From NCBI GenBank assembly GCA_964624415.1, contig CAZUWR010000002.1:12454-76453 (forward strand): a stretch of 64,000 nt of DNA, in the 5' to 3' direction. Positions 4,833 to 59,932 of this stretch are shown here, in pieces. A program made the position numbers and the translations under genes. This DNA is from an uncultured Bdellovibrionales bacterium (GTDB lineage: Bacteria; Patescibacteriota; Minisyncoccia; Moranbacterales; UBA1568). Below the pieces are notes generated by a model that had not been told where the DNA came from, searched no databases, and saw only the letters and a list, made by a program, of their open reading frames with translations. The stretch's first letter is position 1; the number at the start of each line of letters is the position of its first letter.

Positions 4833-4927
4833 TAAAACAACCGGTCTGGTATGCGCACAGTATCCAACCAGAACCAGCCAATATGTATCCAATCACAACT
4901 AGTTAATGCTCATCAAGCTTACACCAT

Positions 4928-7900
4928 TCAATCCCAACGAAAATCGCGTATATCTGTATCAATATCCTCACGCTTGGCATCGCTTTCATAATTTTCCGCC
5001 ATTTTTCGAAGCATTCTCGCGGCACGAGGCCACTTCACTTTCAGAGCATCACCCATTTTTTTGTACTTCTCTGCCAGAGCTCTTTCTTGCTCTCCTCCGG
5101 CATCCAGGGATCGCGAAACCACTCCTCGGCTATTGAACAAGCCGGTTTGAATATGACTCTCTATGACTTCGCTTTTAAGTTTCTCAAGGAGATCCCTCAC
5201 AGCCTCATGAGGCCAGTGTCCGTCACTGCCAATGGGAGCGTTGGCAAGCATAAGACCAATTTGAATATCTCCCCCGGTCACATACTTTTTTGAAGCACAT
5301 TCTTCTCTTGCTGCCTCAATCCACTTCGAGAATTCTTTTTCGTTGAAAGATCCGTCCTTTTGGACTCCCGGAACAAGGTGCCAGGAATAGAGTACCTCCC
5401 GGGCGTTCTTCGCCAAAAAAGGAGAGGTCTCCCTCTTTTTCTTCGTTGGACTGGAAATTTGATCATCTTGCTTATAGACATAAGAAATAAGCTCAACAAA
5501 GAATAAATAGTCTTTTTGGAGGAGGCGATGAACAGCTAATGATGAACCGTGTTTTTCAAAACTATGGAAAAATGCTGCAAAAGGCCACTCTAACTTCATT
5601 ATTTCCTCCAGAGAAAGCTCATCTCTCTCCTGGAGCTGTCTAAATATATTTCCAAGATGATACTCATCCAAGGAGCCTCTTCTAAAATCCTTATGTTTAG
5701 AATCAACCAGTAAGACATCCTGCAGTAATCGCTGGAGCAGAGTACTTGGCAGAGATATTCTATGATCGCCGGCTATAGAGAGCGCGGAAAAGGGTCTTTT
5801 GGCGTCGAGGAGTTTTTCAACTGCAAAAGCCGTGTCTTCGATACTATCACCCTGAAAATATCCCGTAGCGTGATCCCAGTACGCGGCTTCTACTTCACTA
5901 CCACGAGCACCCACAAGAGACCACGTGGCTCTGCTTGAAGGTAAGCCTGAGTACAACAGCGCCTCGCGATCTGCAGTGTAGTTCCCTTTGGCCTTTATTC
6001 TTTTGGCCTGCTTCTCGATCCATTTTTGATCAGTGGCTTGTATTCTCCCTTGGGCATAACTTTCAAGCAGCATCGGATGTTTATTGGAGACACCGAGTAT
6101 TGCGTCCAGGACAGCACTGTCTTCTTTTTCATCTCGGATGATTTTTCCAAGTGCCTGCCCGAAAACACCCTGATATGAAATTTCACAGGCGTATTTGATG
6201 ATCTTTTTCAGCGTAACCTTATCCAAAATCTCACGCATTGCTTTCTCTCTGGCTTTGGTGATCGCCACGGTTTTTTCATCGTATTCCTTTGAATCTCCCT
6301 CTGGCAGTTCTGGCCAGGGATTATTTACTAGCCACCCCAGTCTTTCTAATGTATCTTTCGGGGTAATTTTTTCCAGTACTCGATTCAGTGCAGGAAGAAA
6401 CTTTTTTATTTCTCCATCGCCGTAGGTGTTGATCCAGTGCAGCGTGTCCCGGGTATTTTTAAAAAGCTCCGAAACTTTCTCTTTTGGAAGACTTTTGAGG
6501 CTTTCTTTTTCAATTACCTCCAGAAGATGTTCTCGTATTTCTATGGGAAGTCGGATAAAGTCATCCATCGAAGTTGCCAAGTTTTCCTCCGCAGATGCAA
6601 CATCAATCATTCGCGGGAATAAACCTTTGCTATATTCCTGGTCTTCTGCTCCATTTTCTCGCTCAAGCCCGCGTCTTGGATTGCCGGTCTCTCGCCACCG
6701 GAAGCGGTGTGATTCACTGAAGCTTTCGGGACTGAAATAGCCTTTAGCAAAATCCCAAGTTAACTTCGGGTTCTGTGATACAAGTTTTTCAAATACCCCA
6801 ATTCGCTCTTGGGGCGTGGAACAAGTTTGTGGATATGCTGGCCGGAAAATATCCTTCAGGCTATTCAGAGGCCGATTACTATAACCTCTGCCCTGATCAA
6901 TCTGAGCCAGCTTTAAAAGGATGTCTGCAGAATCCCCTAAATACTCTGAGTCCCAAGCTGTGGATTCAAGAGCCCAAAGCAATCCTGAATGCTTACACTC
7001 GCCGAAAATACCACCTTCGTCCTTCATTAATTCTTTAAATACATCTGGTCGAGTTTCTATAGCCCTCGCCAGACCCTGCAGAAAAGCGTCCGGAGCCGCC
7101 TCAGCGAGAAGGGGGGTCATATCTGAGAGTGACGCCCAGACCTCCCAAGTACTGGCTCTGGTTAAAACTTCCTCTACGATTCTATCGGCGAATGCCTGTG
7201 AGGAGGAGATATGAGGGCAATGATCACTGTGAACTGCTAAGAGTACAAGAGATTCGACCAGTCCGGTTTGTATCCACCCAGAATACGGGCTGACTTTTCC
7301 ATACACAGCTGCAGCCCAACGCTTCTCTACTGCTAGACGGTACTTCGGATCAGTCTTGGTAAGTATCGAAAGAAGGGACGTCTTAAAAAGTTTCAGAAAG
7401 CTTTCGCTAAGATGCGAAGCAAGAAGTTCCCAGGTATCGAGCGGTGCTTTAATCATCCATACGCTTCCCGATTTTCTGATAGGCGTGTCATCCACCCTAA
7501 GAAGCTTTTCTAGTTTCTTGGAATATTCCTCATATTTTAATCCAGAAAGAGTTTCCAATATACGACGATCTCCCTCCTTGTTTTCATCCCAAGAGCCCGC
7601 GAACAATGCAGGAAAGAGAAGATCTGTTTTATCGGGAGCTGCCCACGCAGGTTGGCTTGCGCTTGTGGAAGAAAGCTGGCGATGAAGAACCGGGATGCTT
7701 CGTCCAAAATCTCTGGCCAGTTTCTGAGACTGCACTCCAGACACTCCGTTTTCTAAAAACTTCTTTTCTATTACGTTCCGTTTTGGCCGTGAAAGCCTTA
7801 TTACTTTGCCGTGCAGATCAATTGATTGTGCGTCTGCTGTTAGGAAGACGTGATGGCCATTCTTAACGGCGAGATCAGCAGCGTTTCTACAATCAGCAGG

Positions 7901-8707
7901 CGCGACAATTATGAGATTTTTAAAGTTCGCACTACAGTCTTTAAATTGTTGAATATTTTCTACTACTACACATCGAGAAAATGCTCGAAGTTTGTCTGTT
8001 TCAGAAAGCTCAGTAAGAGCAGCGTACAAAAATGCGCTAGGCTCTTCTGGAGAATCCCCCTGCACTTCTAACAACTCAGGAATACCCACTACCCATTGAT
8101 GGATACGGGCAACTTCGATTGCTCGACCACCAATTACAACGGCCGGGGCGATTTCCGGACTGGTTCCTGCTGCCCACTCTTCCCAGAAACCTTCAATGTC
8201 CTGAATGCCTCCAGAGAGCCCTTTAATTTGGCGAGCTAGCCACAGAGCTACTGCGGGTGTAGCTGAAAGCCAAGACACAAGCTTATCAACAGCAATAACT
8301 TTCACATCAGCCCACTCATAAGTAGCCTTCTTCTTGGCTTCCCAGTTCGTCCTGTCTTTCCAGGGGCGTGGAGTAACAAAAATGAAAGTCGTACTTTGAG
8401 GATCTATCCCCAATGGATTTTTTGTCCGTTTCGTGTAATCATCCTCAGCCTTTTTCCCTGGATTAGCTCCCGTCCCGATTTCCCAGACCGACTCTCCTGC
8501 AGGAAAAAAGCGCGAGCCAGAAGAGGATCGCAGATGGCCATCCCAGCCTCCGATTGCCGTGTTGTCACCACTCGGGAAGTCTATCTCTTCGATAGATGCT
8601 GAGCTGGCCAATATCAAACGACTAAGAAGCTGAGGCAGAGTAGTCTCGCAGTCTTTTTTCTTCCCTGTCAGCCAGGTTTTTATGTCACCAGAATCTATCC
8701 AAATCAT
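4928..8707 (-). CDS. Very large (1259 aa) hypothetical protein with no recognisable NTPase or nuclease motif. Candidate defense/accessory function.
   Basis: Uninterrupted 3.78-kb ORF. I found no Walker A, DEAD/DExH, HxH or YxDD motifs by eye. The C-terminal third is predicted helical/repeat-like. Confidence 0.6.
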   Translation of the reverse strand: MIWIDSGDIKTWLTGKKKDCETTLPQLLSRLILASSASIEEIDFPSGDNTAIGGWDGHLRSSSGSRFFPAGESVWEIGTGANPGKKAEDDYTKRTKNPLGIDPQSTTFIFVTPRPWKDRTNWEAKKKATYEWADVKVIAVDKLVSWLSATPAVALWLARQIKGLSGGIQDIEGFWEEWAAGTSPEIAPAVVIGGRAIEVARIHQWVVGIPELLEVQGDSPEEPSAFLYAALTELSETDKLRAFSRCVVVENIQQFKDCSANFKNLIIVAPADCRNAADLAVKNGHHVFLTADAQSIDLHGKVIRLSRPKRNVIEKKFLENGVSGVQSQKLARDFGRSIPVLHRQLSSTSASQPAWAAPDKTDLLFPALFAGSWDENKEGDRRILETLSGLKYEEYSKKLEKLLRVDDTPIRKSGSVWMIKAPLDTWELLASHLSESFLKLFKTSLLSILTKTDPKYRLAVEKRWAAAVYGKVSPYSGWIQTGLVESLVLLAVHSDHCPHISSSQAFADRIVEEVLTRASTWEVWASLSDMTPLLAEAAPDAFLQGLARAIETRPDVFKELMKDEGGIFGECKHSGLLWALESTAWDSEYLGDSADILLKLAQIDQGRGYSNRPLNSLKDIFRPAYPQTCSTPQERIGVFEKLVSQNPKLTWDFAKGYFSPESFSESHRFRWRETGNPRRGLERENGAEDQEYSKGLFPRMIDVASAEENLATSMDDFIRLPIEIREHLLEVIEKESLKSLPKEKVSELFKNTRDTLHWINTYGDGEIKKFLPALNRVLEKITPKDTLERLGWLVNNPWPELPEGDSKEYDEKTVAITKAREKAMREILDKVTLKKIIKYACEISYQGVFGQALGKIIRDEKEDSAVLDAILGVSNKHPMLLESYAQGRIQATDQKWIEKQAKRIKAKGNYTADREALLYSGLPSSRATWSLVGARGSEVEAAYWDHATGYFQGDSIEDTAFAVEKLLDAKRPFSALSIAGDHRISLPSTLLQRLLQDVLLVDSKHKDFRRGSLDEYHLGNIFRQLQERDELSLEEIMKLEWPFAAFFHSFEKHGSSLAVHRLLQKDYLFFVELISYVYKQDDQISSPTKKKRETSPFLAKNAREVLYSWHLVPGVQKDGSFNEKEFSKWIEAAREECASKKYVTGGDIQIGLMLANAPIGSDGHWPHEAVRDLLEKLKSEVIESHIQTGLFNSRGVVSRSLDAGGEQERALAEKYKKMGDALKVKWPRAARMLRKMAENYESDAKREDIDTDIRDFRWD

Positions 8708-8791
8708 AATCTTTTTCTTTTAAAGATACCTCTTTCCACGTTTAAGTAATTATCCTAAGGAAAGAACTATGTGTCAAAATTGCCTTATGCT

Positions 8792-8821
8792 CATCAAACC
8801 AGAACCAACCGATCTCCAAAG
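8792..8821 (+). repeat. Partial extra copy of the 5' arm of the island repeat (TCATCAAACCAGAACCAACC…)
   Basis: About 80% match to 8944-8973. Confidence 0.3.
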
Positions 8822-8940
8822 ACTTCAACTTTTCTATATCATCCAAACCCCAAAAGTATATTTCATGCCCATTGATCATAGTGAGAAGGTATTTGATCTC
8901 TTTTACTGAAATATAAAGCAAAAAGATGGTTTGAATTTGC

Positions 8941-9090
8941 ATATCATCGAACCAGAACTAACCTACTTCTCATTAATTAATTAACAAATTCAACCCCTAT
9001 GCAATACCCCCCAGTAAAATGGTTCGAACTTCATTGACCATCGAGATCCAAGAATGGAAACGGTCTCGAAAGAAGCTATTTTTGTTTTAT
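8941..9090 (+). repeat. Island repeat copy A, immediately downstream of the RT stop codon
   Basis: ATATCATCGAACCAGAACTAACC…TTAATTAATTAAC…CCCCTATG…GGTTCGAACTTCATTGACCATCGAG…CTATTTTTGTTTTATTTAAG. It aligns at about 75% identity with 11037-11200. Confidence 0.6.
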
Positions 9091-9095
9091 TTAAG

Positions 9096-10067
9096 CTACT
9101 TTCTATATTTTTCAACATAGTTTTTATAACGATTCATGGCTTTCTTTCTAGATGAAAATGTTTTTCTATCCTGAGAAGATGGGTTGGCATTAAGAAGGTC
9201 TTTAATCTTCTTTTTCTTCGCTCTTGCTTTTATTCCTACAGCCAAACTGTCGCGACGTAAGTCAATCCCGACATAATGCATCCCGTCCCTATGAGATCGG
9301 ATACTTGTCTTTTTTTCATTTATTCTGAGTGGTTGATTAGGATCAGCCTCAGCCAATAATTTCACAATTTCATTTCTCAGCTCTTCCATTGCTTTCTTGA
9401 AAACATGACTAGCCGTGATACCAATATCATCGACATAAATAGCTATTCTTGGGTCATGTCCTTTGAGCCTCTTTAAAACAAGATTTCGCAACTTCAGGAA
9501 TAAGTTAAGATTGCACCAAACGGCTAGTCGCGGGGATGTAGCAAAGCCCCTTGCAATGGTCATGATGGGTCCACCAGAGCCCTTGGGGCCCAAAGGGACA
9601 CAACAGAGCCTGGTGAGGATTTTAGAAGCTCTGGGGCTACATCCGCACATTCGTTTGAAAAAGAACTCGACCCTGGAGCTCTCAACTTGCTCGAAAAATC
9701 GTCTTAGGTCAAGTTTTAGCATATGCCGCCTCATCTTTGATCCCAAAAGCTCCCTGGCCGCCATCACATGATCTCTTTTTTTAAGACCTCCGAAAATAAA
9801 AAATGGCACCAAATTATCATGAGGCGCCAAAACCAATGCATTTATTTTTCGATGTAGTTTCTTAAGATTCTTCCCTGAAGCATTTCGAATATACTTGCCT
9901 TTTTTCAACTCAGAACTAGCGCTATCTTTCCAGTATGAATCGAGATTTAAAAGACAGTCATTTATCAAATCAAGGGCTTCCTTCGAAGGAAAGTCTTTGT
10001 GGCTAATATGCTTCGCAAGCTCATTTTTACTTTTTATGAAAAGCTTCGGATAAATTGACTTTGACAT
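9096..10067 (-). CDS. Reverse transcriptase, retron-like (fingers-palm only, 323 aa)
   Basis: RT motifs in order: FIFGGLKKRDHVMAARELL…LKLDLRRFFEQV (motifs 2/A), ARGFATSPRLAVWCNLNL (retron-type PQGxxxSPxLxN), IAIYVDDIGI (YxDD catalytic box), INEKKTSI (motif 6), HYVGIDL (retron VTG-like). There is no RNase H, maturase or endonuclease domain. Confidence 0.85.
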   Translation of the reverse strand: MSKSIYPKLFIKSKNELAKHISHKDFPSKEALDLINDCLLNLDSYWKDSASSELKKGKYIRNASGKNLKKLHRKINALVLAPHDNLVPFFIFGGLKKRDHVMAARELLGSKMRRHMLKLDLRRFFEQVESSRVEFFFKRMCGCSPRASKILTRLCCVPLGPKGSGGPIMTIARGFATSPRLAVWCNLNLFLKLRNLVLKRLKGHDPRIAIYVDDIGITASHVFKKAMEELRNEIVKLLAEADPNQPLRINEKKTSIRSHRDGMHYVGIDLRRDSLAVGIKARAKKKKIKDLLNANPSSQDRKTFSSRKKAMNRYKNYVEKYRK

Positions 10068-10383
10068 ACTTTTTCAACCGCTTAGCTCGGTTATAAATAA
10101 GAAGATCTTGCATCTTTTCCCCCCATTCCACCAGAAGTTTTTCCACACCACTTACTCGACCCTTACTTAACTCGGTATCCATGAAAAGAAATGGGGTGAT
10201 AGATGCTGGATGAACATCCATTCGATCGGCAAGTTTCAATAAAAACCCCTTAGAGACTTCTTTCTGTCCAGTCTCAATCATCGCAATAAGGACTGCCGAC
10301 ACATTCAAAGCAGAGGCAAACTCCGCCTGAGTCAAACCAGATTCACTCCTGATTTTCTTAATAAGTTCCGAAAAAGTATACAT
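10027..10383 (-). CDS. XRE-family helix-turn-helix protein whose 3' end overlaps the RT start by 41 nt
   Basis: IRSESGLTQAEFASALNVSAVLIAMIETGQKEVSKGFLLKLADRMDV is a classic XRE/Cro-type HTH. Its stop codon (10027-10029) lies inside the RT ORF (RT start codon at 10065-10067). Confidence 0.75.
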   Translation of the reverse strand: MYTFSELIKKIRSESGLTQAEFASALNVSAVLIAMIETGQKEVSKGFLLKLADRMDVHPASITPFLFMDTELSKGRVSGVEKLLVEWGEKMQDLLIYNRAKRLKKYVKVNLSEAFHKK

Positions 10384-10589
10384 AAAACCACTACGAGACG
10401 ACTACCAATTGATCAAGTCCAGGATGATGCGAACAATCCGAAGGATTGAATACAACATCCGCAAGAACTTTTTCATATTTAGTAGCCGCCTCGCTATACG
10501 AAAGCTTCGATTCAGCAATGAAGAAGTGATTCATAGTGTTTCCATTATAGCTAGGACTGGCTTATTATTATCTTTGTTGCTATTTAGAA

Positions 10590-10880
10590 GCACAAACCAA
10601 CTTCGCCCGACGGTTAAGAGTTTCGAGTGGTAAAAACAGCTTTCGGTAACTATTAAATAACCCGTCGGGCTAATTGATAGGTGCTCTGCAAGTTGAATGT
10701 GCGAAACAAATCACTTACTTCCCAACTCTACCATCCTATCTCTCATCATTATCATGTCCAAACTAGTCCGAATACGACTCGTGATAACCGACGAAATAGG
10801 TTGCTAGGGTCGAGCTCCGCTCAATAAAGAGTGGTCAGATAATTCCTCCAGAGGAACATCTATTATTTTCGATTTTTTAA
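10590..10880. ncRNA. Candidate structured non-coding RNA (possibly the RT-associated ncRNA) in the 0.95-kb ORF-poor stretch upstream of the HTH-RT pair
   Basis: A perfect 9-bp GC-rich stem GCCCGACGG (10604-10612) pairs with CCGTCGGGC (10662-10670) around a 49-nt loop, in an otherwise AT-rich spacer. A weak hairpin plus T-tract lies at 10844-10880. The only ORF here (10409-10633) is implausible. Confidence 0.3.
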
Positions 10881-11036
10881 CCGTTTTTGATGCGTGAATC
10901 ATTTGTTAAGCAACAGTCCTATTCACAATTATATACAAAACGTATAACTCCTGTCAAGCTTCCACTCCAGCAGAGACTTATTCAAAGTAGACAATATCTT
11001 CCCAATTAAGACTGTTCTTATGTGACAGGAAAATAT

Positions 11037-11200
11037 ATATCATCGAACCAAAACCAACCTATTTTTTATTAATTAACACATTCAGCCCCTGTGTAACACT
11101 CTCCATTTCCCCCATATTTTCCACCAAAAGAGTTCGAACTTCGTTGACTACCGAGCTCACATATCAAAAAAGTGACTATCTAAGTCTCTTTTTGTTAATT
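11037..11200 (+). repeat. Island repeat copy B, upstream of the DUF4238-like gene
   Basis: ATATCATCGAACCAAAACCAACC…TTAATTAACAC…CCCCTGTG…AGTTCGAACTTCGTTGACTACCGAG…CTCTTTTTGTTAATTTGCAG. Confidence 0.6.
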
Positions 11201-11342
11201 TGCAGAATTACACTGAAATCTAAACCTGAGTGCGGTTAGTACCGTTTCGATGTTATCTAGTCTAGAGCCAAACTAAATAAAAATGATTAACACTTTTTTA
11301 TAAAATACTACACTAAAATAATTCTTCGCCATCTTTAAACCT

Positions 11343-12350
11343 ATGGCTCAAGGAAAACCAAAAGATCATTATGTGCCACAGTTTTATCTAGACGCTTTTG
11401 CTATAGAGGGTCCGGGAAAGAAACGATCTCATATATACCAATATATGGACAAGCAAGTAGTTTCTTCAAGAATAAGTGATGTTGCTAGTGAAAAAGATTA
11501 CTACACCTTTATACTAGATGAGGAAGATAAGAATACTGTCACTAGAGATGTTGATGATTTTTTTACAAATATAGAGGCTTCAGCAGCACCAGTGATTCAG
11601 CGGATTATAAAAGAAGAAAGTTTGGACATTACTAAAGAAGAAAGGGGATGGGTAGCTGTCTTTTTTTCGACATTAGCTGTACGTACACCAGGCTTTCTTA
11701 ATCTAGCGCAAGCACTACATGGTACTGCAATAAAAGAAATTGGTATAGCTGGAGCAGTGAATAAAGAAGTTCTAGCTGAGGATGTAAGGCGAGCAGGAAT
11801 GACAATTGATGAAAAACAACTTAATAACCTTCATAATTTTGTTATGAAGGGGGACTACGATATTACTTTTTCTAAAAAATCAAAGTCGTATTTTGTTGCT
11901 ACAGGGCTTAAAGACGCAAAAAATCTATCCAATATGTATTTTGAAAAGTTCTGGCATCTACTATTGGTAAATGGAAAAACTCCACTCTTAACCTCAGATA
12001 ATCCGGTTTCTCTTTATAGACCAAAATACATACCGGCCATATATAATGCTGGTTATGGTAATGGGGTCATAGTGATACCTCTTTCACCTAATGTAGCCAT
12101 ATTAATGAGAGAAAAACCTCTTCGAAAAGAAATTTCTCATATTAACGAATATATGGTAAGACGTCTCAATCAGAATACAATCCGTTTCTCTAATGAGTTT
12201 GTTTTTGGAAATCTACACATTCCCCAACTTGAGAAGCTTTTTAATAAAACACCAAAAAAGGCACACCAAAAGGTAAAAGCAACAAGAATAAAATGGACTC
12301 CATACACAGTTATGAGTACGGGCGTTATCCCGGAAGAATTTATAAAATAA
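11343..12350 (+). CDS. DUF4238-family-like protein (N-terminal HYVPQFYL signature)
   Basis: The N-terminus KDHYVPQFYLDAFA matches the HxVPxxYLxxF hallmark I associate with DUF4238 proteins (the family appears near defense/abortive-infection genes). 335 aa. Confidence 0.5.
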   Translation: MAQGKPKDHYVPQFYLDAFAIEGPGKKRSHIYQYMDKQVVSSRISDVASEKDYYTFILDEEDKNTVTRDVDDFFTNIEASAAPVIQRIIKEESLDITKEERGWVAVFFSTLAVRTPGFLNLAQALHGTAIKEIGIAGAVNKEVLAEDVRRAGMTIDEKQLNNLHNFVMKGDYDITFSKKSKSYFVATGLKDAKNLSNMYFEKFWHLLLVNGKTPLLTSDNPVSLYRPKYIPAIYNAGYGNGVIVIPLSPNVAILMREKPLRKEISHINEYMVRRLNQNTIRFSNEFVFGNLHIPQLEKLFNKTPKKAHQKVKATRIKWTPYTVMSTGVIPEEFIK

Positions 12351-12443
12351 TCCTGACTGTTTGTTGTTTCCGACTCTAATGAAAAATGTTTCTATAATAA
12401 TTACATCCTTTATACAGGTAACGTAACTAAGAAATGTAATATA

Positions 12444-30656: not shown

Positions 30657-32210
30657 TTATGGTCTTTTTATTGTCAAAAATGTATTTTTGTGTTCTATTA
30701 TTAAACCGGCGCTTAAACCACAAACTATCCAAAAAAGCAATTGCCCTTGCTGTATATCCCACAAATAATGATCAGCAATCAAAATAGGAAGAAAACCGAT
30801 AAGCGCTGCGCGCGCATACACATTCAAATAGATTAGCTTCTGTAAAAAATTCTGAGCATCATTTAAAACGACAGTTGTTAACATAGTATGTTTTAGCTTA
30901 CTTCCGACAAGCGTTATGTACCACATCGTAAAAATGAAGAATCCAATAACTCCCAGTTCCGCCCAAATAAGCAAGAATACATTATGTACGGGCTGCAATT
31001 GCCAGTCATACAGTGGATAAATAGTCTGCTGCGCCATAAAAATAACCAGTTGTCCACAACTTATCCCCAAAATAGGGTGGTTGTGTATAACATCAAAAGC
31101 TACCTGTTGATAGAGTACTCGTTCTCTAAGCGATTGAAATAAAAGCGCGTCTTTATCCACTCTTACATAAAACTCTGTGCAAACAAACGCTCCTACAACA
31201 AGTATCGCCACACTAAAAACATGCTTAAAATTAAACTTCTTTAATCTTACTGTATTTTTTCTCATACCAGCATACTCATGCTTTGTTCCACGTGAAACAA
31301 TGACGATAAAACAAACGCTCAAGAGAAATCCTAGAATGGCTGATTTCGAAAAACTTACTCCCAATCCAATGATCTGTATAAGTAAGACTCCATAGTACAT
31401 CAACTTGCCTTGCTCCTGTTCCACGTGAAACATTTTGAAATACATATGGCTCAAAAGGATAGTGCAGCATAAAAAGCCTCCTAGTATATTGGGGTGTGGG
31501 AAGGTACCATAGGCGCGAATGTACTTATCGCCATCAAGAATGATTTTTGCAACCCCCAAAGACGATGGCTGGAGAATACTTTCACGTAAGAAAGTGAGTC
31601 CCAATGAATGCTGCAGCATGAATTGCCCTATACTAAGGGAAGATTCTAAAACACCTGCTAGTATAAAAATACCGAGCACCTTTCGAAAAATAACCTGCTT
31701 TTGAGCTAGCGCATATGTTCCATGTGGAACAATGTGAAACAGTGTAAAGAGGTACAGTCCGTACAATTCAATTAACTTACACACAAAGAAGATCCCTACC
31801 ACACTATCTCTTGCCCAGAGCAAAGAGGCGATTGACCATAGTATCAATACCACAGGAAATCCTACGAGGACACTCCTAGTGTTCCACGTGAAACATTTCC
31901 TTGCTATTGACATAAGTTTTAAATCGTGTCTTTCTTTTAAAAACCATGCTCCTAGAGCAAGCATAAGCATTATGTCAGACAGGTAGAGAGATATATCAGC
32001 ATACTCATTAAATGCTCCGTGCAGTGGTCTGTACCATAAAACCTTCCTTATAGACAAGGGAAGGGTGAAAAGAAAGCCGTAGAAGAGATATACGTCGATT
32101 TTTCCCTTCATATTTTTACCTATGTCTTTCACACTCTTTTCATTAAATGAGGCTTCATTGACTCTAGTATACAGAGTTTTGCTTTTTTTGGATATTTGAC
32201 GAATCTCCAA
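30657..32210 (-). CDS. O-antigen ligase/polymerase-family (Wzy_C-like) polytopic membrane protein
   Basis: 517 aa with more than 10 predicted TM helices. It is the longest frame in the region. Four copies of a 16-bp palindrome sit inside it (see the repeat feature at 31284-31905). Confidence 0.55.
   Translation of the reverse strand: MEIRQISKKSKTLYTRVNEASFNEKSVKDIGKNMKGKIDVYLFYGFLFTLPLSIRKVLWYRPLHGAFNEYADISLYLSDIMLMLALGAWFLKERHDLKLMSIARKCFTWNTRSVLVGFPVVLILWSIASLLWARDSVVGIFFVCKLIELYGLYLFTLFHIVPHGTYALAQKQVIFRKVLGIFILAGVLESSLSIGQFMLQHSLGLTFLRESILQPSSLGVAKIILDGDKYIRAYGTFPHPNILGGFLCCTILLSHMYFKMFHVEQEQGKLMYYGVLLIQIIGLGVSFSKSAILGFLLSVCFIVIVSRGTKHEYAGMRKNTVRLKKFNFKHVFSVAILVVGAFVCTEFYVRVDKDALLFQSLRERVLYQQVAFDVIHNHPILGISCGQLVIFMAQQTIYPLYDWQLQPVHNVFLLIWAELGVIGFFIFTMWYITLVGSKLKHTMLTTVVLNDAQNFLQKLIYLNVYARAALIGFLPILIADHYLWDIQQGQLLFWIVCGLSAGLIIEHKNTFLTIKRP
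31284..31905. repeat. Four intragenic copies of the 16-bp palindrome-like motif TGTTCCACGTGAAACA (31284-31299, 31417-31432, 31890-31905) and the variant TGTTCCATGTGGAACA-ATGTGAAACA (31716-31741)
   Basis: Exact 16-mer matches. The arms TGTTCCA/TGGAACA surround a CACGTG core. The copies fall in three different reading frames of the host ORF (CFTWNT, MFHVEQ, VSRGTK, FHIVPHGT). Confidence 0.7.
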
Positions 32211-32398: not shown

Positions 32399-32824
32399 AT
32401 GGGACATTCCTCTCAAAAAAGCCTCGGTTACGCTTTATCTCAACTCAATCGGCTGTGGAATCAACGCTTTATGGAGAAATTGCGTGCCCAAGGGTACTAC
32501 AATCTCAAACCATCGTTTTGCGTTGTATTTATACCTCTTTTTGAAAATGACGGTCAAAGTGCATCAGATCTTGCTCGCGAAGCGAAGATAAGCAAACAAA
32601 CTATGAGTATCTATGCTCATGAATTGAGACAGCGCGGGTATATCAAAATGGTTCAAGATACCACGGACAAAAGAGTATACCGGATTTTTCTCACTGCTAA
32701 GGGGTCACTCCTCCATAAGGTATTCGAATCAACACAGCATTCTATCAGTCAGGAACTCTGCGGACACCTTCTTGCTTCAGAAGCAGCTGAGCTTTCACGG
32801 ATTTTAGAAAAATGCTTTAAATAA
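32399..32824 (+). CDS. MarR-family transcriptional regulator
   Basis: A winged HTH of MarR type (…ASDLAREAKISKQTMSIYAHELRQRGYIKMVQDTTDKRVYRIFLTAKG…). Confidence 0.7.
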   Translation: MGHSSQKSLGYALSQLNRLWNQRFMEKLRAQGYYNLKPSFCVVFIPLFENDGQSASDLAREAKISKQTMSIYAHELRQRGYIKMVQDTTDKRVYRIFLTAKGSLLHKVFESTQHSISQELCGHLLASEAAELSRILEKCFK

Positions 32825-36166: not shown

Positions 36167-36237
36167 CTAAAAACGACTTTTTATTATACAATAAGGATAT
36201 CTTTATAAGGTATCCTTATTTGTTTATCATTCTTCTT

Positions 36238-37323
36238 ATGTCGTTTTTTTCTCAAAAGACACCTTCTCAAAATAATCCTGGCGGACCTGCCTTGAAAGTA
36301 AGGACTATGCAGGATGATATCAATAATTTTTCCGATGCGCCAGCTGAAAAAACAGTTCCCGAAATGCCAGTCATACAAACACAAAAGACTGAGCCGCTTA
36401 AACCGGTTGAGAATATTCCTCAACACAATAATTCGCCATTTGCCAATACTCCGCCTCCATTAGCTGCATCAACATCCAAAGGACCCTTCACGCAAAACCC
36501 CTTCATAACAACACCTCAAACCCAAGATGGTCAGGTACAACAAACACCAACTAGCTTCCAAAAAGATCCGTTCATGCAGGCAAATGATTTCAATGCCAAT
36601 ATACATATAAGTGGCACCTCTTCAACCACATCGAAAGTGCTTTCTTTTTTGGTAACACTTATCATACTAGCCTCCATAGGCGGAGGAGGGTATTATTTCA
36701 TACACACAAGAAATATTGATGTATATTCCTTGCTAGGAAAAACGCCTATACAGGAAACTCCGAAATTACTCTTCTCTAGCGAAAAACCGAATTATCTTCC
36801 TCTAGATAGCTCTATTAGTACCCCTCAGGCATTTCAAACGCTTCTCGCCCAAACAGCGCAGCAAGTGACCAGCCTTAAGAGCACAAAACCTATCGAATTC
36901 TTCGTCACGGACGCCAATAATAAACCGCTTTCTTTTAGGGAATTTTCGAAACTTTCAGGCATACAACTTTCTTCGGCAACGCTTAACGCGCTTGGCGATA
37001 CCTTTTCCCTCTTTGTCTACACAGATGGTCAACGCACCAACATAGGACTTTCTATTACAATAAAAGATGTTACTGCGCTCAAAGAAAGTTTCAAACAAGA
37101 AGAACCTTCACTCATACAATCGCTTACGCCGCTTTTCCTCAACAATTCACCAACAGTAACAACAAAAACATTTAGCGATGGCTCTTACAAAAATATGCCC
37201 CTACGCTATCTCAATCTTCGCGAAGACACGTCGCTCTCTATCGACTATGCTATTACCACTACTCATCTTATTATCGGAACAAGTATGAAAACGCATCATG
37301 CATTACTTGATATTGTTCAATAG
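36238..37323 (+). CDS. Pro/Thr/Gln-rich membrane-anchored hypothetical protein
   Basis: Low-complexity N-terminal half, one TM helix (LSFLVTLIILASIGGGGYYFI), then a C-terminal domain. The track ORF begins at a TTG at 36220; the ATG at 36238 is the likelier start. Confidence 0.45.
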   Translation: MSFFSQKTPSQNNPGGPALKVRTMQDDINNFSDAPAEKTVPEMPVIQTQKTEPLKPVENIPQHNNSPFANTPPPLAASTSKGPFTQNPFITTPQTQDGQVQQTPTSFQKDPFMQANDFNANIHISGTSSTTSKVLSFLVTLIILASIGGGGYYFIHTRNIDVYSLLGKTPIQETPKLLFSSEKPNYLPLDSSISTPQAFQTLLAQTAQQVTSLKSTKPIEFFVTDANNKPLSFREFSKLSGIQLSSATLNALGDTFSLFVYTDGQRTNIGLSITIKDVTALKESFKQEEPSLIQSLTPLFLNNSPTVTTKTFSDGSYKNMPLRYLNLREDTSLSIDYAITTTHLIIGTSMKTHHALLDIVQ

Positions 37324-37354
37324 GGATAGTGTGTTAAGAAATACCAAAAATAAT

Positions 37355-37390
37355 TCTCTTGTAAAAGAGAATTATTTTTTTAAGGCTTAT
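37355..37390 (+). terminator. Strong Rho-independent terminator
   Basis: AAATAATTCTCTTGTAAAAGAGAATTATTTTTTT (perfect 13-bp stem). Confidence 0.75.
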
Positions 37391-37399
37391 ATACAGAAA

Positions 37400-38440
37400 A
37401 AGAAAGTGGCTTTTTTCAAAAACATGAAAATGGTAGTGTAGGAATATATTTTCTTCTTTGACACGCACGCTTCATAAGAGAGTTATTTACGCGATACAAT
37501 GAATTCTTGATTGACGTATGCATTTTTTTTTGCTATACTATAGATAAGAGTAAGTAAAGAACTTTGACAACTAAGGAACGGTGAGGGTATTTCCAATCAC
37601 AATTTCCCCCTATTTGTGATTGGAATTCTCTTACTGTTCAAATGATCTTATAACATAAGATCTCCCCTGACTGACCAGGGAAACATAAAACAAAAATAAA
37701 AAAATGCCCTAAGTCAGCTACCTGTGTAGTAACCTTTACGCGTTAGTATATAGATAACTGACTTAGAAGCATACCTTATAAAAAAATAAAAAATAAGGAA
37801 AAAACAAAAATAAAGAAAAAAACCAGTTCTTTTAAACAAAGGCCAAGTGCCAGAGAACGGTAAAGAGAAAAGATGTTAAAGTCAGAAAGACATCAAACAA
37901 AAAAGCATGCGCACAAATTACATGCGTAGAAAGCTTGATCATAGTATCTTAAGCTAACATATCTACTCACCCGTTGATATACCAGTAGGGATGCTATTAT
38001 CACACTACACATGTTGGCACATGCCGTCAGGCGATTCACACTGCCCAATATTATTTTATTTAAGGCGTGTCACTGAATCGCCTGACAACCAACTATTTGT
38101 CAGGTGTTGATACTTCCAAACGCTCCTTTATAAGGTGTTTTTTTATTCTCAAAATAAGCTTTTTTCCTTTATTGTGTTTACTCTACACACATTTATCATT
38201 TTCGCTTCTCAGTGTCTGATTGTGGATAAAGTGTGGATAAATGGTGAGTAACTCTTCAAAAAACGTGTTTATCCTTGTGGTTACTTTCTGAGTAAGTCGC
38301 TTTCCTTCGTTTACAAGTTATCCTCTTGTTTTCAACAAACACTATCTATCCACATATTTCACAAAGCACTTCTTTTTTATACACCAAACAGTTCTCCCAT
38401 TAATCATACGTAGGAAAGAAAAAACGAGCTATCCACCAAT
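37400..38440. promoter_or_regulatory. 1.1-kb gene-free AT-rich region with a cluster of DnaA boxes and multiple hairpins. Candidate oriC or DnaA-regulated control region.
   Basis: Perfect DnaA boxes (TGTGGATAA = reverse complement of TTATCCACA) at 38221-38229 and 38232-38240. 8/9 matches lie at 38346-38354 (CTATCCACA) and 38430-38438 (CTATCCACC), with weaker boxes at 38268-38276 and 38328-38336. There are long A/T tracts (37681-37700, 37781-37830). Inverted repeats: CCAATCACAA/TTGTGATTGG (about 37592-37627), CTAAGTCAG/CTGACTTAG (37712-37770), TCAGGCGATTCA/TGAATCGCCTGA (38028-38087). Confidence 0.5.
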
Positions 38441-38444
38441 TCGC

Positions 38445-38920: not shown

Positions 38921-38929
38921 TGTGGATAA
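38921..38929. promoter_or_regulatory. Isolated perfect DnaA box (TGTGGATAA) upstream of the dksA/traR-like gene
   Basis: Exact 9-mer match. Confidence 0.4.
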
Positions 38930-42384: not shown

Positions 42385-42405
42385 TTATCCATTATTGTGG
42401 ATAAC
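42385..42405. promoter_or_regulatory. Pair of DnaA-box-like 9-mers (TTATCCATT and a perfect TGTGGATAA) upstream of rsmA
   Basis: Sequence match only. Confidence 0.35.
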
Positions 42406-53647: not shown

Positions 53648-54046
53648 ATGTTATTCAATGTTCCACAGTACATCGATGTCGAAGATAAAGTGGCAGGACC
53701 GCTGACCGCTAAGCAGTTACTGTGGATGATCGGTATGGGGGCCGCACTGATGTTTTTGTGGAGCATGCTCAATACGGGCGCTTTTTTTGCTGCAGCAATC
53801 CCGGTAGTGTGCGCATTCGTGGCCCTCGCTTTTTACCGGCCTTATAATCAACCCTTAGCTATGTTCATAGCCAATGCATTACTCTTTATGATCCGGCCGA
53901 AAATTTATGTCTGGGAGCGTCCTACCAAGAGGACGCCTCAGCGAAAGGAAAAAAATCCTGTGATGGGAGAGATAGTTGTCAATAAACAAGTAACGGTCGA
54001 AGAAGTGAACCGGCTCGCAAAAATAGTCGATAGTCAGAGACATTGA
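53648..54046 (+). CDS. VirB3/PrgI-like small two-TM protein
   Basis: 132 aa, two adjacent TM helices. It sits immediately upstream of the VirB4 ORFs, as in Gram-positive-type T4SS. Confidence 0.45.
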   Translation: MLFNVPQYIDVEDKVAGPLTAKQLLWMIGMGAALMFLWSMLNTGAFFAAAIPVVCAFVALAFYRPYNQPLAMFIANALLFMIRPKIYVWERPTKRTPQRKEKNPVMGEIVVNKQVTVEEVNRLAKIVDSQRH

Positions 54047-54056
54047 ACAGTTTTTT

Positions 54057-54737
54057 ATGGAAAATTCTCAACAAAAAAAGAAATCGGCTAGCACGCAGCA
54101 ATACGTCGATGTGCGCGAGGTACGAGATGGCGTGATTGTGCTTAAGAACGGCGCACTCCGAGCTATTTTATTGGTGTCTTCTTTGAATTTCGATCTGAAG
54201 TCAACTGAAGAGCAAGACGCTATTATTTCGCAGTATCAAAGCTTTCTAAATTCCTTGGACTTTCCGGTGCAGGTGCTTATTCATTCGAGAAGGTTTAATA
54301 TAGAGCCCTATCTTCAATTACTCAAGGAAAAAGAAGAGGAACAGACGAATGAATTGTTGCGCCTCCAGATTTCAGAGTATCAGCATTTTATTAAAAATCT
54401 GACGGAAGTATCCGATATCATGTCGAAATACTTTTATGTCATCGTACCTTTTGCTTCTATTGAAGATAAGCAAAGTGGTTTGCTTGAAAAATTGAGCAAT
54501 ATGATAAATCCGAAAGAGGCTATTCATGAGCGACGCGAACTTTTTGAAACATACAAAAATCAGCTATGGCAAAGGGTTGATCATGTGAGTATCGGCCTTT
54601 CGGGTACAGGAGTAAAGGTAGCGGCGCTCAATACGGAAGAAATCATAGAACTTCTCTATAATACCTATAATCCATCACTGTTCTCGACGACCCTGACAAA
54701 AAATATCAAGGATATCGAACTGAATACGGCGATTTGA
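54057..54737 (+). CDS. VirB4/TraC N-terminal-domain protein (first piece of a split VirB4)
   Basis: YVDVREVRDGVIVLKNGALRAILLVSSLNFDLKSTEEQDAIISQYQSFLNSL resembles the CagE/TrbE/VirB N-domain. It ends 10 nt before the ATPase ORF, in a different frame. Confidence 0.45.
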   Translation: MENSQQKKKSASTQQYVDVREVRDGVIVLKNGALRAILLVSSLNFDLKSTEEQDAIISQYQSFLNSLDFPVQVLIHSRRFNIEPYLQLLKEKEEEQTNELLRLQISEYQHFIKNLTEVSDIMSKYFYVIVPFASIEDKQSGLLEKLSNMINPKEAIHERRELFETYKNQLWQRVDHVSIGLSGTGVKVAALNTEEIIELLYNTYNPSLFSTTLTKNIKDIELNTAI

Positions 54738-54747
54738 TGAGCAATAG

Positions 54748-56595
54748 GTGAATATATACAATAAAAAGCATCGTATGGCATTTTTTTCCAAAAAACAAGA
54801 ACAACAGGATGAATTCCTGGCGAGCGAAGAACTCTATCAAAGAGGTGTTGCGACGATACGCGACCTTATCGCGCCTTCAGCTATCAAATTGAGCTCCAAC
54901 TTCATGCAGATAGGAGAGACGATGGCTCGGACGCATTTCGTGGTAGCTTACCCGCGATACCTCAATACGAACTGGTTTTCACCGATTGTGAATCTGGACT
55001 TTCCTCTCGATATTTCGATGATGATTCACCCTATCGATACGCGGGAAATCTTAAAAAACCTCCGAAAATCGGTAACGCAAGTGCAGTCTCAGATTCATAT
55101 TGAGGAGGAAGGCGGCAAGGTACGTGATCCGATTCTCGAGACAGCTCTCAAAGATATCGAAGAATTGCGCGACAAACTTCAGCAGGGAACGGAGAAGTTT
55201 TTCCGGTTTGGTTTGTATATCACGCTGTATGCGCAGTCGTTGGAGGATTTGAACCGCATGAGTCAGGCAGTTGAGGCGATTTTGGAATCACAACTGGTCT
55301 ATATTAAGCCGGCAGTATTGCGTATGGAGCAGGGGTTTACTTCGACGCGACCCTTGATGAACGATGTGCTCGATATTGCAAACAACCTCAATACAGCACC
55401 ATTATCCACCACTTTTCCATTCGTTTCGGCGGATCTCTCATCGAATGAGGGAATATTGTATGGCATCAATCGTCACAACAATAGCTTGATTCTGTTTGAT
55501 CGTTTCAAATTGGAAAATGCCAATATGGTGGTATTCGCCAAATCCGGTGCCGGAAAAAGCTATACCGTCAAACTCGAAGTGCTCCGTTCGATGATGCTCG
55601 GTTCGAGCGTGATCATTATCGATCCTGAAAACGAATACCGCCACCTGTGTGAGATGGTGGGCGGATCCTTTATTGATATCAAGCTGGGCACGAATTTCCA
55701 TCTCAATCCTTTTGATCTACCGCGTGTCGGCGAGGACGAAGATCTTACAGCGGTGCTGCGCAATACTATCGCCGGGCTTATCGGGTTGATTCATTTGATG
55801 CTTGGCAATCTCACACCGGAAGAAGATTCGATTCTCGACCGTGCTCTTCGGGAAACCTACGCTATTCGTGACATTACTCCTACGGGGCGTTTCCGCGACA
55901 TACCATCCAACGCTTTTCCGACCATGCTCGATTTGTATGAAGTCTTGAAAAATATGGAGGGTGCAGAATCTTTGGCTGCGCGTCTCGAGAAATACACCGA
56001 GGGCATCTTTTCGGGATTTTTGAGTAATCATACTAACGTATCCTTGCGCGAGCAGTTAGTCGTATTTAATATCCGCGATTTGGAAGAAGAATTGCGTCCT
56101 ATCGCGATGTATATTATCTTGCAATTCATTTGGAATGAGATGCGATCAGAGCTTAAAAAACGGATTGTGGTGGTGGATGAGGCGTGGGTGATGATGCAGC
56201 ACGAAGACGCGGCTTCATTTCTGTATGGCATAGCCAAGCGTTGCCGAAAGTACTATACGGGATTGACGACTATCACTCAAGACATCGGGGATTTTATGCA
56301 TTCGCGCTATGGCAAGCCTATTTTGACAAACTCTTCGCTCCAGCTCCTGCTGAGGCAATCACCAGCATCTATTGAATTGGTTGCGGAGACATTTTTCCTT
56401 ACTGACCACGAAAAATTCCTGCTTTTGGAAAGCAATGTGGGCGAGGGGATTTTCTTTGCCGGTACCAAACATGTCGCTATCAAGGTTATTGCCTCCTATA
56501 GTGAGGACCAGATTATCACCTCTGATCCGCGACAACTCTTGGAAATCGAGCAAGCGAAACAGGATTTCGAACAAGAAAATAAGGAGAATGTTTAA
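54748..56595 (+). CDS. virB4: VirB4-family T4SS ATPase (C-terminal ATPase piece)
   Basis: Walker A VVFAKSGAGKSYTVK, Walker B IVVVDEAWVMM, and TraC/VirB4-like flanking motifs. Confidence 0.8.
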   Translation: MNIYNKKHRMAFFSKKQEQQDEFLASEELYQRGVATIRDLIAPSAIKLSSNFMQIGETMARTHFVVAYPRYLNTNWFSPIVNLDFPLDISMMIHPIDTREILKNLRKSVTQVQSQIHIEEEGGKVRDPILETALKDIEELRDKLQQGTEKFFRFGLYITLYAQSLEDLNRMSQAVEAILESQLVYIKPAVLRMEQGFTSTRPLMNDVLDIANNLNTAPLSTTFPFVSADLSSNEGILYGINRHNNSLILFDRFKLENANMVVFAKSGAGKSYTVKLEVLRSMMLGSSVIIIDPENEYRHLCEMVGGSFIDIKLGTNFHLNPFDLPRVGEDEDLTAVLRNTIAGLIGLIHLMLGNLTPEEDSILDRALRETYAIRDITPTGRFRDIPSNAFPTMLDLYEVLKNMEGAESLAARLEKYTEGIFSGFLSNHTNVSLREQLVVFNIRDLEEELRPIAMYIILQFIWNEMRSELKKRIVVVDEAWVMMQHEDAASFLYGIAKRCRKYYTGLTTITQDIGDFMHSRYGKPILTNSSLQLLLRQSPASIELVAETFFLTDHEKFLLLESNVGEGIFFAGTKHVAIKVIASYSEDQIITSDPRQLLEIEQAKQDFEQENKENV

Positions 56596-56606
56596 GCGCT
56601 CCCTGT

Positions 56607-57251: not shown

Positions 57252-57285
57252 ATTAGAAAAAGCCGGAGTAAAAGATACATCGTTT

Positions 57286-59922: not shown

Positions 59923-59932
59923 CAGTGTCCGT

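What the first reader, a model, noticed from the sequence alone, without database searches (positions are those of the whole stretch)
31284..31905. Four copies of a 16-bp CACGTG-centred palindrome embedded in different reading frames of an O-antigen-ligase-family gene
Seen in sequence: TGTTCCACGTGAAACA occurs exactly three times (31284, 31417, 31890), plus a variant TGTTCCATGTGGAACA followed by ATGTGAAACA (31716-31741). All lie inside the 517-codon ORF 30657-32210. The copies lie in three different codon phases and each maps to a hydrophilic loop between predicted TM helices. Repeated in-frame-tolerated insertion of a small palindromic element into a coding sequence is unusual. Possibilities are a miniature mobile/REP-like element that targets this gene, a set of intragenic binding sites for a regulator or restriction-modification/recombination factor, or substrates for recombination-driven variation of a surface-polysaccharide enzyme.
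Basis: seen in the sequence. Interest (0 to 1): 0.55.

Follow-up and report, generated by a model that had tools for sequence, protein, structure and literature searches.

The report
parS centromere array inside a gene
The repeated 16-base palindrome is the universal bacterial chromosome-segregation site parS (the "centromere" bound by ParB), and in this group of ultra-small bacteria (Moranbacteria) the whole cluster of sites is written into the loops of one membrane-protein gene near the replication origin without breaking its reading frame.

Summary
TGTTCCACGTGAAACA is letter-for-letter the canonical chromosomal parS consensus (TGTTNCACGTGAAACA). The window comes from a Candidatus Moranbacteria (Patescibacteria/CPR) genome. 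The host gene, a Wzy_C/O-antigen-ligase-family membrane protein, carries 1-16 parS copies in each of 39 orthologous loci: 254 sites in 63 kb of gene against 7 in 518 kb of flanks. 145 of 150 exhaustive-search representatives carry parS-encoded peptides (up to 18). Sites use all three codon phases, show essentially no synonymous variation, lie only in variable hydrophilic loops, and the ORF stays open. This is selection on DNA, tolerated by the protein. The cluster lies about 6 kb from a GC-skew minimum with a DnaA-box-rich spacer. Relatives place the gene or an equivalent array 0.3-2 kb from dnaA. A gene-agnostic metagenome scan finds the same arrays beside parA/parB (39 and 29 of 80 loci) and embedded in mnmG/gidA. 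The mobile-element, restriction-site, peptide-repeat and recombination-switch readings are not supported. Best explanation: an origin-proximal ParB-loading centromere array. A ParB gene in this lineage could not be shown with the DNA held. It is a new architectural variant of a known element, of moderate interest.

The parts
30657..32111 (-). Host gene: a polytopic membrane protein of the Wzy_C / O-antigen-ligase family (484 aa from M34; the ORF is open up to the TTG at 32210)
   Evidence: Pfam PF04932 Wzy_C, E=4.5e-14, 52.9 bits against a cut-off of 31.7. Public gene call of 484 aa with the same Pfam hit. Homologues align from residue about 25-38.
31880..31895 (.). parS copy 1, an exact match to the consensus (TGTTCCACGTGAAACA); codon phase 0, peptide CFTWN, loop A
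   Evidence: The position is conserved in L001 (alignment column 316).
31716..31731 (.). parS copy 2, degenerate (TGTTCCATGTGGAACA; CpG to TpG in the core); phase 2, peptide VPHGT, loop B
   Evidence: The identical variant is present at the same position in L001 (column 498).
31732..31741 (.). Half-site remnant ATGTGAAACA that abuts copy 2 (probably a decayed duplicate)
   Evidence: Read directly from the sequence.
31417..31432 (.). parS copy 3, exact; phase 1, peptide MFHVEQ, loop C
   Evidence: Conserved in L001 (column 797).
31284..31299 (.). parS copy 4, exact; phase 2, peptide VSRGT, loop D
   Evidence: Conserved in L001 (column 930).
31012..31161 (.). Five one-mismatch DnaA-box-like 9-mers inside the same gene. 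Their significance is uncertain because they overlap the conserved ...HNHPILGISCGQ... coding motif.
   Evidence: Poisson P=2e-4 against the flank rate, and four of the five are positionally shared with L001.
37324..38444 (.). Candidate oriC: a 1.1-kb non-coding AT-rich spacer at the cumulative GC-skew minimum. It has tandem perfect DnaA boxes at 38221-38229 and 38232-38240, a one-mismatch box at 38346, and further degenerate boxes.
   Evidence: No Rfam family matches it.

Best explanation
The palindromes are parS sites, the centromere-like loading sites of the chromosome-partitioning protein ParB (Spo0J). Together they form the origin-proximal centromere array of this Moranbacteria chromosome. 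By analogy with characterised systems, ParB dimers nucleate on each 16-bp palindrome, close into CTP-dependent sliding clamps and spread over the neighbouring kilobases. The resulting partition complex marks the origin region for ParA-driven segregation and/or SMC loading (inferred, not shown here). What is unusual is where the array is stored. In this gene-dense, reduced genome it is written into the variable, probably cytoplasmic loops of one conserved polytopic membrane-protein gene of the Wzy_C family. This is possible because the 16-mer has no stop codon in any of the six frames and encodes innocuous hydrophilic peptides (CSTWN, VPRGT or FHVEH/Q, depending on phase). Copy number changes through local tandem duplication of 37-49-nt units, while selection on the host protein keeps the frame open.
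For: (1) Identity. The 16-mer equals the chromosomal parS consensus TGTTNCACGTGAAACA given in review PMC7022226. The orthologues' commonest form, TGTTCCACGTGGAACA, occurs in P. aeruginosa parS papers. (2) Non-random and exclusive. There are 4 sites in 612 bp and none elsewhere in 64 kb. (3) Lineage-wide. In 39 orthologous loci there are 254 sites in 63 kb of gene against 7 in 518 kb of flanks, about 300-fold. In an exhaustive, seed-free HMMER search, 145 of 150 representatives carry parS-encoded pentapeptides, 925 in total against 0.2 in shuffles. (4) Selection is on DNA. All three phases are used (58/78/112). Of 204 such peptides, 194 are encoded by the exact 16-mer, 10 by versions with 1-2 mismatches, and none by any other synonymous coding. 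The short flank is symmetric (A at -2 in 90%, T at +17 in 86%), as expected for a dimeric binder. (5) The protein tolerates it. The ORF is intact in 36 of 39 loci. Sites lie only in low-occupancy hydrophilic loops and never in conserved TM blocks. (6) Origin proximity. The window's GC-skew minimum and DnaA-box spacer lie about 6 kb away. Skew minima fall within about 9 kb of the gene in 13 of 22 loci. In L088 the orthologue starts 1.7 kb from dnaA, and in L048 (GyrA 70% identical to the window's) the same flanked motif forms an array in the dnaA-upstream spacer beside DnaA boxes. (7) Association with the par system. In a gene-agnostic metagenome scan for dense arrays of this 16-mer, 39 of 80 loci have a ParA/Soj gene and 29 a ParB/Spo0J gene in the held DNA, often directly adjacent.
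Against: No ParB, ParA or DnaA gene is present in the 64-kb window, in 10-kb flanks of 39 orthologous loci, or in the extra contigs of this organism. The cognate binding protein is therefore inferred and not shown for this lineage. The origin position in the window rests on GC skew and DnaA boxes only, and the gene-strand switch at 32.2 kb gives a slightly different estimate from the skew minimum at 38.4 kb. The window's clade has few sites, some of them degenerate (window 3+1; L001 has 2 perfect and 4 one-mismatch sites), which could mean relaxed use. No binding or localisation experiment exists for any Patescibacteria ParB in the literature searched.
Confidence: 0.85

Rival explanations
1. 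The sites bind a different sequence-specific protein and do not function in segregation. Candidates are a ParB paralogue with a non-segregation role (Noc-like or KorB-like), a transcription regulator of the polysaccharide gene, or a restriction-modification or recombination enzyme that recognises the CACGTG core.
For: ParB was not found in the held DNA. A MarR-family regulator gene lies just upstream, divergently oriented, at 32399-32824. The sites are intragenic, so a bound protein could act as a roadblock.
Against: The full 16-mer is conserved, not just the CACGTG core, and it is identical to the pan-bacterial parS. CACGTG alone occurs at chance frequency in the window (7 against 7.6). No R-M genes are adjacent. 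The same arrays sit next to parAB or dnaA in unrelated lineages. MarR operators are not of this form (established knowledge).
Confidence: 0.07
2. The copies are a miniature mobile or REP-like palindromic element that repeatedly inserts into this gene.
For: Copy number varies from 1 to 18 among orthologues. There are 100%-identical tandem units of 41 and 49 nt.
Against: Nothing is conserved beyond about 5 nt either side of the 16-mer, and there is no body, TIR or TSD. No copies are dispersed in 64 kb or in 518 kb of flanks. Site positions are shared between genes only 58% identical at the nucleotide level, which indicates vertical inheritance. Expansion is by local tandem duplication, not transposition.
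Confidence: 0.03
3. The repeats are substrates for recombination (deletion or inversion between copies) that switches or diversifies a surface-polysaccharide enzyme, as in phase or antigenic variation.
For: Identical 16-bp palindromes within one gene could recombine. Closely spaced neighbours are mostly out of frame (8 of 71 in frame, p=2e-5), so a deletion between them would switch the gene off.
Against: The ORF is intact in 36 of 39 genomes. The identical gene occurs in an independent assembly. The repeat is exactly parS, with no dedicated invertase or recombinase adjacent. The same arrays occur in mnmG and in non-coding DNA, where variation makes no sense.
Confidence: 0.03
4. The repeat is a protein-level motif (a functional peptide repeat) and the nucleotide identity is incidental.
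For: The peptides recur in many homologues.
Against: The same DNA is read in three phases and gives three unrelated peptides. There is no synonymous variation in 204 occurrences. The sites lie in the least conserved loops.
Confidence: 0.01

Closest known systems
Bacillus subtilis Spo0J/ParB parS sites (TGTTNCACGTGAAACA; 10 sites, 8 in the origin domain)
   Same: The window's 16-mer fits this consensus exactly. It is origin-proximal. From established knowledge, several B. subtilis sites also lie inside coding sequences, including spo0J itself.
   Different: B. subtilis sites are single copies scattered over hundreds of kilobases in different genes. Here the whole cluster (3-18 copies) is packed into the loops of one orthologous gene across a phylum-level lineage.
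Myxococcus xanthus parS cluster (22 copies of TGTTCCACGTGGAACG in 3 kb, about 4 kb upstream of parA; ParB binding shown by EMSA; PMC3899335)
   Same: It is a dense origin-proximal array of nearly the same palindrome. Its density (about 7 per kb) is similar to the largest Moranbacteria arrays (16 sites in 2.1 kb in L030).
   Different: It lies close to parAB. The passages of the paper that I read do not describe it as embedded in a conserved protein-coding frame. Here no parAB lies within about 10 kb, and the array is in-frame coding sequence.
Pseudomonas aeruginosa parS1-4 (perfect palindrome TGTTCCACGTGGAACA; four sites near oriC, one of which is sufficient; PMC4368675)
   Same: The same perfect palindrome is the dominant form in the orthologues, and there are four clustered sites near oriC, as in the window.
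   Different: The P. aeruginosa sites are spread over several kilobases and several genes or intergenic regions. They are not confined to one gene's loops.
In-frame parS arrays in mnmG/gidA of uncultured bacteria (found here: L044, L049, L058, L068, L097, L120)
   Same: There are 3-6 parS copies inserted in frame into one loop of a conserved, classically origin-proximal gene, splitting the GIDA Pfam domain into two stretches. The principle is the same: a stop-free palindrome stored in a tolerant loop.
   Different: The host is a different, soluble enzyme, only one loop is used, and the spacing can be in frame (39 nt in L049). I found no literature description of this either.

Membership tests
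Chromosomal parS (ParABS centromere site) | A 16-bp inverted repeat matching TGTTNCACGTGAAACA | tested here: met
   Three exact matches and one site with a single core mismatch. The consensus is quoted from PMC7022226.
Chromosomal parS (ParABS centromere site) | Located in the origin-proximal domain of the chromosome | tested here: met
   The cluster is about 6 kb from the cumulative GC-skew minimum and the DnaA-box spacer. The orthologue in L088 is 1.7 kb from dnaA, and the array in L048 lies in the dnaA-upstream spacer. Caveat: the origin is predicted, not mapped.
Chromosomal parS (ParABS centromere site) | Sequence conserved at the nucleotide level regardless of coding context | tested here: met
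   All three phases are used. 194 of 204 peptide occurrences are encoded by the exact 16-mer and none by an alternative coding. There are 254 sites in 39 orthologues.
Chromosomal parS (ParABS centromere site) | A cognate ParB (ParBc N-terminal domain plus HTH) is encoded in the same genome | not testable with these tools
   No ParB in the window, in 39 x about 20 kb of orthologous loci, or in extra contigs of the organism. The rest of these genomes could not be fetched. In other lineages the same arrays adjoin parA/parB.
Chromosomal parS (ParABS centromere site) | Specific ParB binding, CTP-dependent loading and spreading | not testable with these tools
   This needs EMSA/BLI or ChIP-seq with the lineage's ParB.
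Wzy_C / O-antigen ligase family (PF04932), host gene | Significant match to the Wzy_C domain and a polytopic membrane architecture | tested here: met
   52.9 bits against a gathering score of 31.7. There are multiple conserved hydrophobic blocks. The substrate and activity are unknown.
MITE / REP-type miniature mobile element | A defined element body with terminal repeats or target-site duplications, and copies dispersed in the genome | tested here: not met
   Conservation is limited to the 16-mer plus about 4 nt of flank. No copies occur outside the gene in 64 kb, and only 7 occur in 518 kb of flanks.
Restriction-modification target (CACGTG) | Biased genome-wide frequency of the core, or adjacent R-M genes | tested here: not met
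   CACGTG occurs 7 times against 7.6 expected in the window. No methyltransferase or endonuclease domains were found in the neighbours.

The most novel reading that the evidence does not exclude
The choice of host gene may not be incidental. By embedding the centromere in a gene whose product is co-translationally inserted into the membrane, these ultra-small cells would tether the ParB-parS/origin complex to the membrane by transertion. That would give segregation an anchor without dedicated polar landmark proteins. The marked avoidance of in-frame spacing between neighbouring sites would 'frame-lock' the array: any recombinational loss of a copy frameshifts a needed gene and is purged, so the host gene acts as a guardian of centromere copy number. 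The DnaA boxes conserved in loop A of many orthologues would make the same gene a combined replication and segregation control hub.
Probability: 0.1. Interest if true: 0.8.

Novelty: new variant of a known kind. Interest (0 to 1): 0.55.

Why it matters
parS/ParB is the most widespread bacterial chromosome-segregation system, but nothing on it was found for Patescibacteria/CPR in the literature searched. This result gives a ready-made, sequence-defined centromere and origin marker for an uncultured phylum. It shows that a cis-acting chromosome-maintenance array can be stored stably inside a protein-coding frame, making up to about 13% of the gene's length, which is a clear case of overlapping DNA-level and protein-level codes in a reduced genome. 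It also explains a recurrent annotation oddity: the CSTWN, VPRGT and FHVEH peptides in membrane proteins and in MnmG. In practice, the array can be used to locate origins in CPR MAGs and to test ParB loading, roadblocking by transcription, and the evolution of centromere copy number.

Tried and rejected
(1) I looked for parA, parB, dnaA and dnaN in the window with Pfam/NCBIfam on about 48 ORFs, with tblastn probes and with signature regexes. None was found. The probes were later validated on other loci. (2) Extending the window via exact-protein look-ups gave only short Logan contigs and no par genes. (3) Rfam searches of the window and of the candidate oriC spacer found only tRNAs. (4) Literature searches for a prior description (parS+ParB+Patescibacteria, Moranbacteria+ParB, CPR+ParB+ParA, the peptide strings, parS+O-antigen ligase) found nothing relevant. 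(5) The ParB-fold survey (PMC12704722) and the Saccharibacteria genetics paper (PMC10633639) do not mention CPR ParB or parS. (6) The DnaA-box-like cluster inside the window gene (31012-31161) was examined and set aside as evidence, because it overlaps the most conserved protein motif. (7) The MITE, R-M, peptide-repeat and phase-variation readings were considered and rejected as the main explanation. (8) I did not run a ParB homology search in the large protein database, because its hits carry no taxonomy and would be dominated by close relatives of any probe. I also did not run structure prediction, because the loop mapping was already clear from the alignment.

Full report
OBSERVATION. A variant, TGTTCCATGTGGAACA, is at 31716 and is followed by the half-site ATGTGAAACA. 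Allowing up to three mismatches, there is no other copy in the 64 kb. The 8 strand-matches compare with 0.51 expected, and no shuffle reaches that number. All copies lie in the minus-strand ORF 30657-32210, which matches Pfam Wzy_C (O-antigen ligase family) at E=4.5e-14, above the gathering score. The real start is probably M34 (nt 32111, 484 aa), which is the product called in an independent public assembly. The copies are read in phases 0, 2, 1 and 2 as CFTWN, VPHGT, FHVEQ and VSRGT, and they avoid the hydrophobic cores.

WHAT THE MOTIF IS. The 16-mer is letter-for-letter the chromosomal parS consensus TGTTNCACGTGAAACA, the binding site of ParB/Spo0J. The review PMC7022226 lists this consensus for B. 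subtilis (10 sites) and C. glutamicum (10 sites), and lists close variants for M. xanthus (22 copies of TGTTCCACGTGGAACG), Caulobacter and others. The perfect palindrome TGTTCCACGTGGAACA, which dominates in the relatives, appears in P. aeruginosa parS papers such as PMC4368675.

IT IS A LINEAGE-WIDE FEATURE OF THIS GENE. The gene's relatives in a species-representative genome collection are nearly all Candidatus Moranbacteria/Moraniibacteriota or unclassified Parcubacteria/Patescibacteria MAGs. In 39 orthologous loci (28-51% amino-acid identity) I counted 254 sites with at most one mismatch inside 63 kb of gene, against 7 in 518 kb of flanking DNA, about 300-fold. Copy number is 1-16 per gene. 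One retrieval seed (KMFHVEQE) encoded a site, so I repeated the test with an exhaustive, seed-free HMMER search of 1.84 billion representatives. That search gave 362 hits at E<1e-30. Of the best 150, 145 contain parS-encoded pentapeptides (median 5, maximum 18), 925 in total against 0.2 in shuffled sequences. The window's own paralogue, and a third Wzy_C gene of the same organism, have none.

SELECTION IS ON THE DNA, AND THE PROTEIN TOLERATES IT. Across the orthologues the sites use all three codon phases (58, 78 and 112) and give three unrelated peptides. Of 204 occurrences of those peptides, 194 are encoded by the exact 16-mer, 10 by versions with one or two mismatches, and none by any other synonymous coding. 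The only conserved context is a short symmetric flank (A at -2 in 90%, T at +17 in 86%), as expected for a dimeric DNA-binding protein. Nothing is conserved beyond about 5 nt. The ORF remains open across at least 98% of the match in 36 of 39 loci. This is possible because the palindrome has no stop codon in any frame (seen directly in the sequence). In a protein alignment the sites fall only in about six variable-length, hydrophilic inter-helix loops and never in the conserved hydrophobic blocks. The site-free paralogue has short loops at those positions. Gene length rises with site number (Spearman 0.47-0.50). The site-bearing loops are net positive (+1.3 to +4.5, apart from the short loop E at +0.6), whereas the conserved site-free loops are about neutral. 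This suggests, by the positive-inside rule, that the arrays sit mostly in cytoplasmic loops (inference). Arrays grow by tandem duplication of 41- or 49-nt units, some copies being 100% identical. Between the window and its closest relative L001, which share only 58% nucleotide identity, all four site positions are conserved, including the degenerate CATGTG variant. Sites are therefore inherited, not repeatedly inserted.

ORIGIN PROXIMITY. The window's cumulative GC skew reaches its minimum at 38.0-38.5 kb. There a 1.1-kb non-coding, 33-35% GC spacer (37324-38444) carries two tandem perfect DnaA boxes and several degenerate ones, and it matches no Rfam family. Gene orientation diverges at 32.2 kb. 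The parS cluster therefore lies between about 0.3 and about 7 kb from the predicted origin. In 13 of 22 related loci the skew minimum falls inside the fetched piece, within about 9 kb of the gene. In L088 the orthologue starts 1.7 kb from dnaA. In L048, whose GyrA and NYN proteins are about 70% identical to the window's, the same flanked motif forms a non-coding array in the AT-rich dnaA-upstream spacer next to perfect DnaA boxes. The chromosomal neighbourhood (gyrA, rpsA, gmk, tilS, ftsH) is conserved. In the distant L029 the sites spill into the next 1.6 kb and end at a tandem DnaA-box pair, which suggests that position as well as host gene matters.

INDEPENDENT LINK TO THE PAR SYSTEM. Only four of these are clear orthologues of the Wzy-like gene, two of them with 17 sites. 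Of the 80 loci, 39 carry a ParA/Soj gene, 29 a ParB/Spo0J gene and 8 a dnaA within the held DNA, often immediately beside the array. Six loci have the array inserted in frame into mnmG/gidA, splitting its GIDA domain. The 16-mer therefore behaves as bona fide parS in environmental bacteria, and storing arrays inside tolerant loops of origin-proximal genes is a recurring solution.

RIVALS. A MITE/REP element is excluded by the lack of any body, TIR or TSD, the lack of dispersed copies, and the vertical inheritance of positions. A restriction site is unlikely because CACGTG occurs at chance frequency (7 against 7.6) and no R-M genes are nearby. A peptide repeat is excluded by the three phases and the absence of synonymous variation. 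Recombination-driven switching of the enzyme has no positive support, since the ORFs are intact and an independent assembly has the identical gene. Read-level data could not be examined, however. Binding by some other protein cannot be formally excluded because ParB was not found in the DNA I could reach.

MECHANISM, SHOWN AND INFERRED. Shown: the sequence identity to parS, its extreme and lineage-wide concentration in this gene, the DNA-level constraint, the loop placement with ORF maintenance, the proximity to predicted origins or to dnaA, and the association of identical arrays with parAB elsewhere. Inferred from established knowledge of ParABS: ParB dimers nucleate at each site, CTP-dependent clamps spread over the flanking kilobases, and the complex drives origin segregation and/or SMC loading, with multiple sites raising the loading rate. 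Inferred: arrays live in coding loops because intergenic space is scarce in these reduced genomes, and because the stop-free palindrome encodes harmless hydrophilic peptides.

COMPARISON AND NOVELTY. The element itself is a known kind (parS). Dense arrays are known (M. xanthus has 22 sites in 3 kb with EMSA-proven ParB binding), and single parS sites inside genes are known. I could not find any description of the present architecture in the searchable literature. That architecture is an entire centromere array carried in frame in the loops of one orthologous polytopic membrane-protein gene across a phylum-level CPR lineage, with up to 18 copies and up to about 13% of the gene's length. I rate it a new variant of a known kind, of moderate interest.

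LIMITS. ParB was not demonstrated for this lineage, and the rest of the relevant genomes could not be fetched. Origins are predicted only. The spacing bias and the DnaA-box enrichment are not corrected for phylogenetic non-independence.

Noticed in passing
L014, L015, L017, L024, L027, L032, L039 (about 245-315 nt into the orthologous ORF); L008 rel. 262-286: Perfect DnaA boxes (TGTGGATAA) are about 7 times denser inside the Wzy-parS gene (16 in 66 kb) than in the flanks (20 in 579 kb; Poisson P=3e-9). In many orthologues one sits in loop A within a conserved nucleotide block (tgtcaagg.ttag.cTGTGGATAActcgtgttttgcacaa), and L008 has an inverted pair. The loops may therefore host DnaA sites as well as parS.
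   Followed up: partly
window 37324-38444 (also 38921-38929 and 42396-42404): A candidate oriC without an adjacent dnaA: a 1.1-kb AT-rich non-coding spacer at the GC-skew minimum, with tandem perfect DnaA boxes at 38221 and 38232 and no Rfam match. No dnaA, dnaN or parAB was found among the ORFs scanned in the 64 kb.
   Followed up: partly
orthologous loci L001-L039 (spacing statistics): Neighbouring parS copies avoid in-frame spacing. Only 8 of 71 spacings of 110 nt or less are multiples of 3 (binomial p=2e-5), and the favoured unit lengths are 37, 41 and 49 nt. This might 'frame-lock' the array against recombinational copy loss. The test is not corrected for phylogeny.
   Followed up: partly
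L044, L049, L058, L068, L097, L120 (metagenome contigs): In other lineages (GC 46-55%) there are 3-6 parS copies inserted in frame into one loop of mnmG/gidA, which splits the GIDA Pfam domain into two stretches.
   Followed up: partly
L069 (27 sites in 1.9 kb, GC 0.60), L096 (23 sites, next to soj and dnaA), L115 (16), L067 (13), L081 (13): These are very dense parS arrays in uncultured bacteria, equal to or denser than the 22-site M. xanthus cluster.
   Followed up: no
window 1-12400 and L040/L041 beyond the left edge: A probable integrated mobile island. It contains a large serine recombinase (Resolvase + Recombinase + Zn_ribbon_recom) just outside the window, a reverse transcriptase (RVT_1, 9096-10067) overlapping an HTH_3 gene, a small Terminase_3-like ORF, a DUF4238 gene and a 1259-aa ORF with no Pfam match. 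It is flanked by rplS and a pseudouridine synthase gene.
   Followed up: no
window 53648-60790: A type-IV-secretion-like or conjugative-pilus-like gene cluster (PrgI family, TraG/VirB4 P-loop ATPase, T4SS pilin) with several large ORFs that have no Pfam match.
   Followed up: no
window 62125-63357 and L043 832-2139: Two further Wzy_C paralogues lie next to a GT2 glycosyltransferase gene. Neither carries parS, so the array is specific to one orthologue group.
   Followed up: yes
window 36220-37323: A 367-aa Q/P/T-rich ORF with no Pfam or NCBIfam match has strongly negative GC skew (-0.24) although it lies on the plus strand. This skew shifts the apparent skew minimum. The ORF is conserved next to pnp in L001 and L004.
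   Followed up: no
L029 11600-13060: In this distant relative only one parS lies in the Wzy gene. Four more lie in or between small downstream ORFs (one Smr-like), followed by tandem perfect DnaA boxes at 13031 and 13053.
   Followed up: partly
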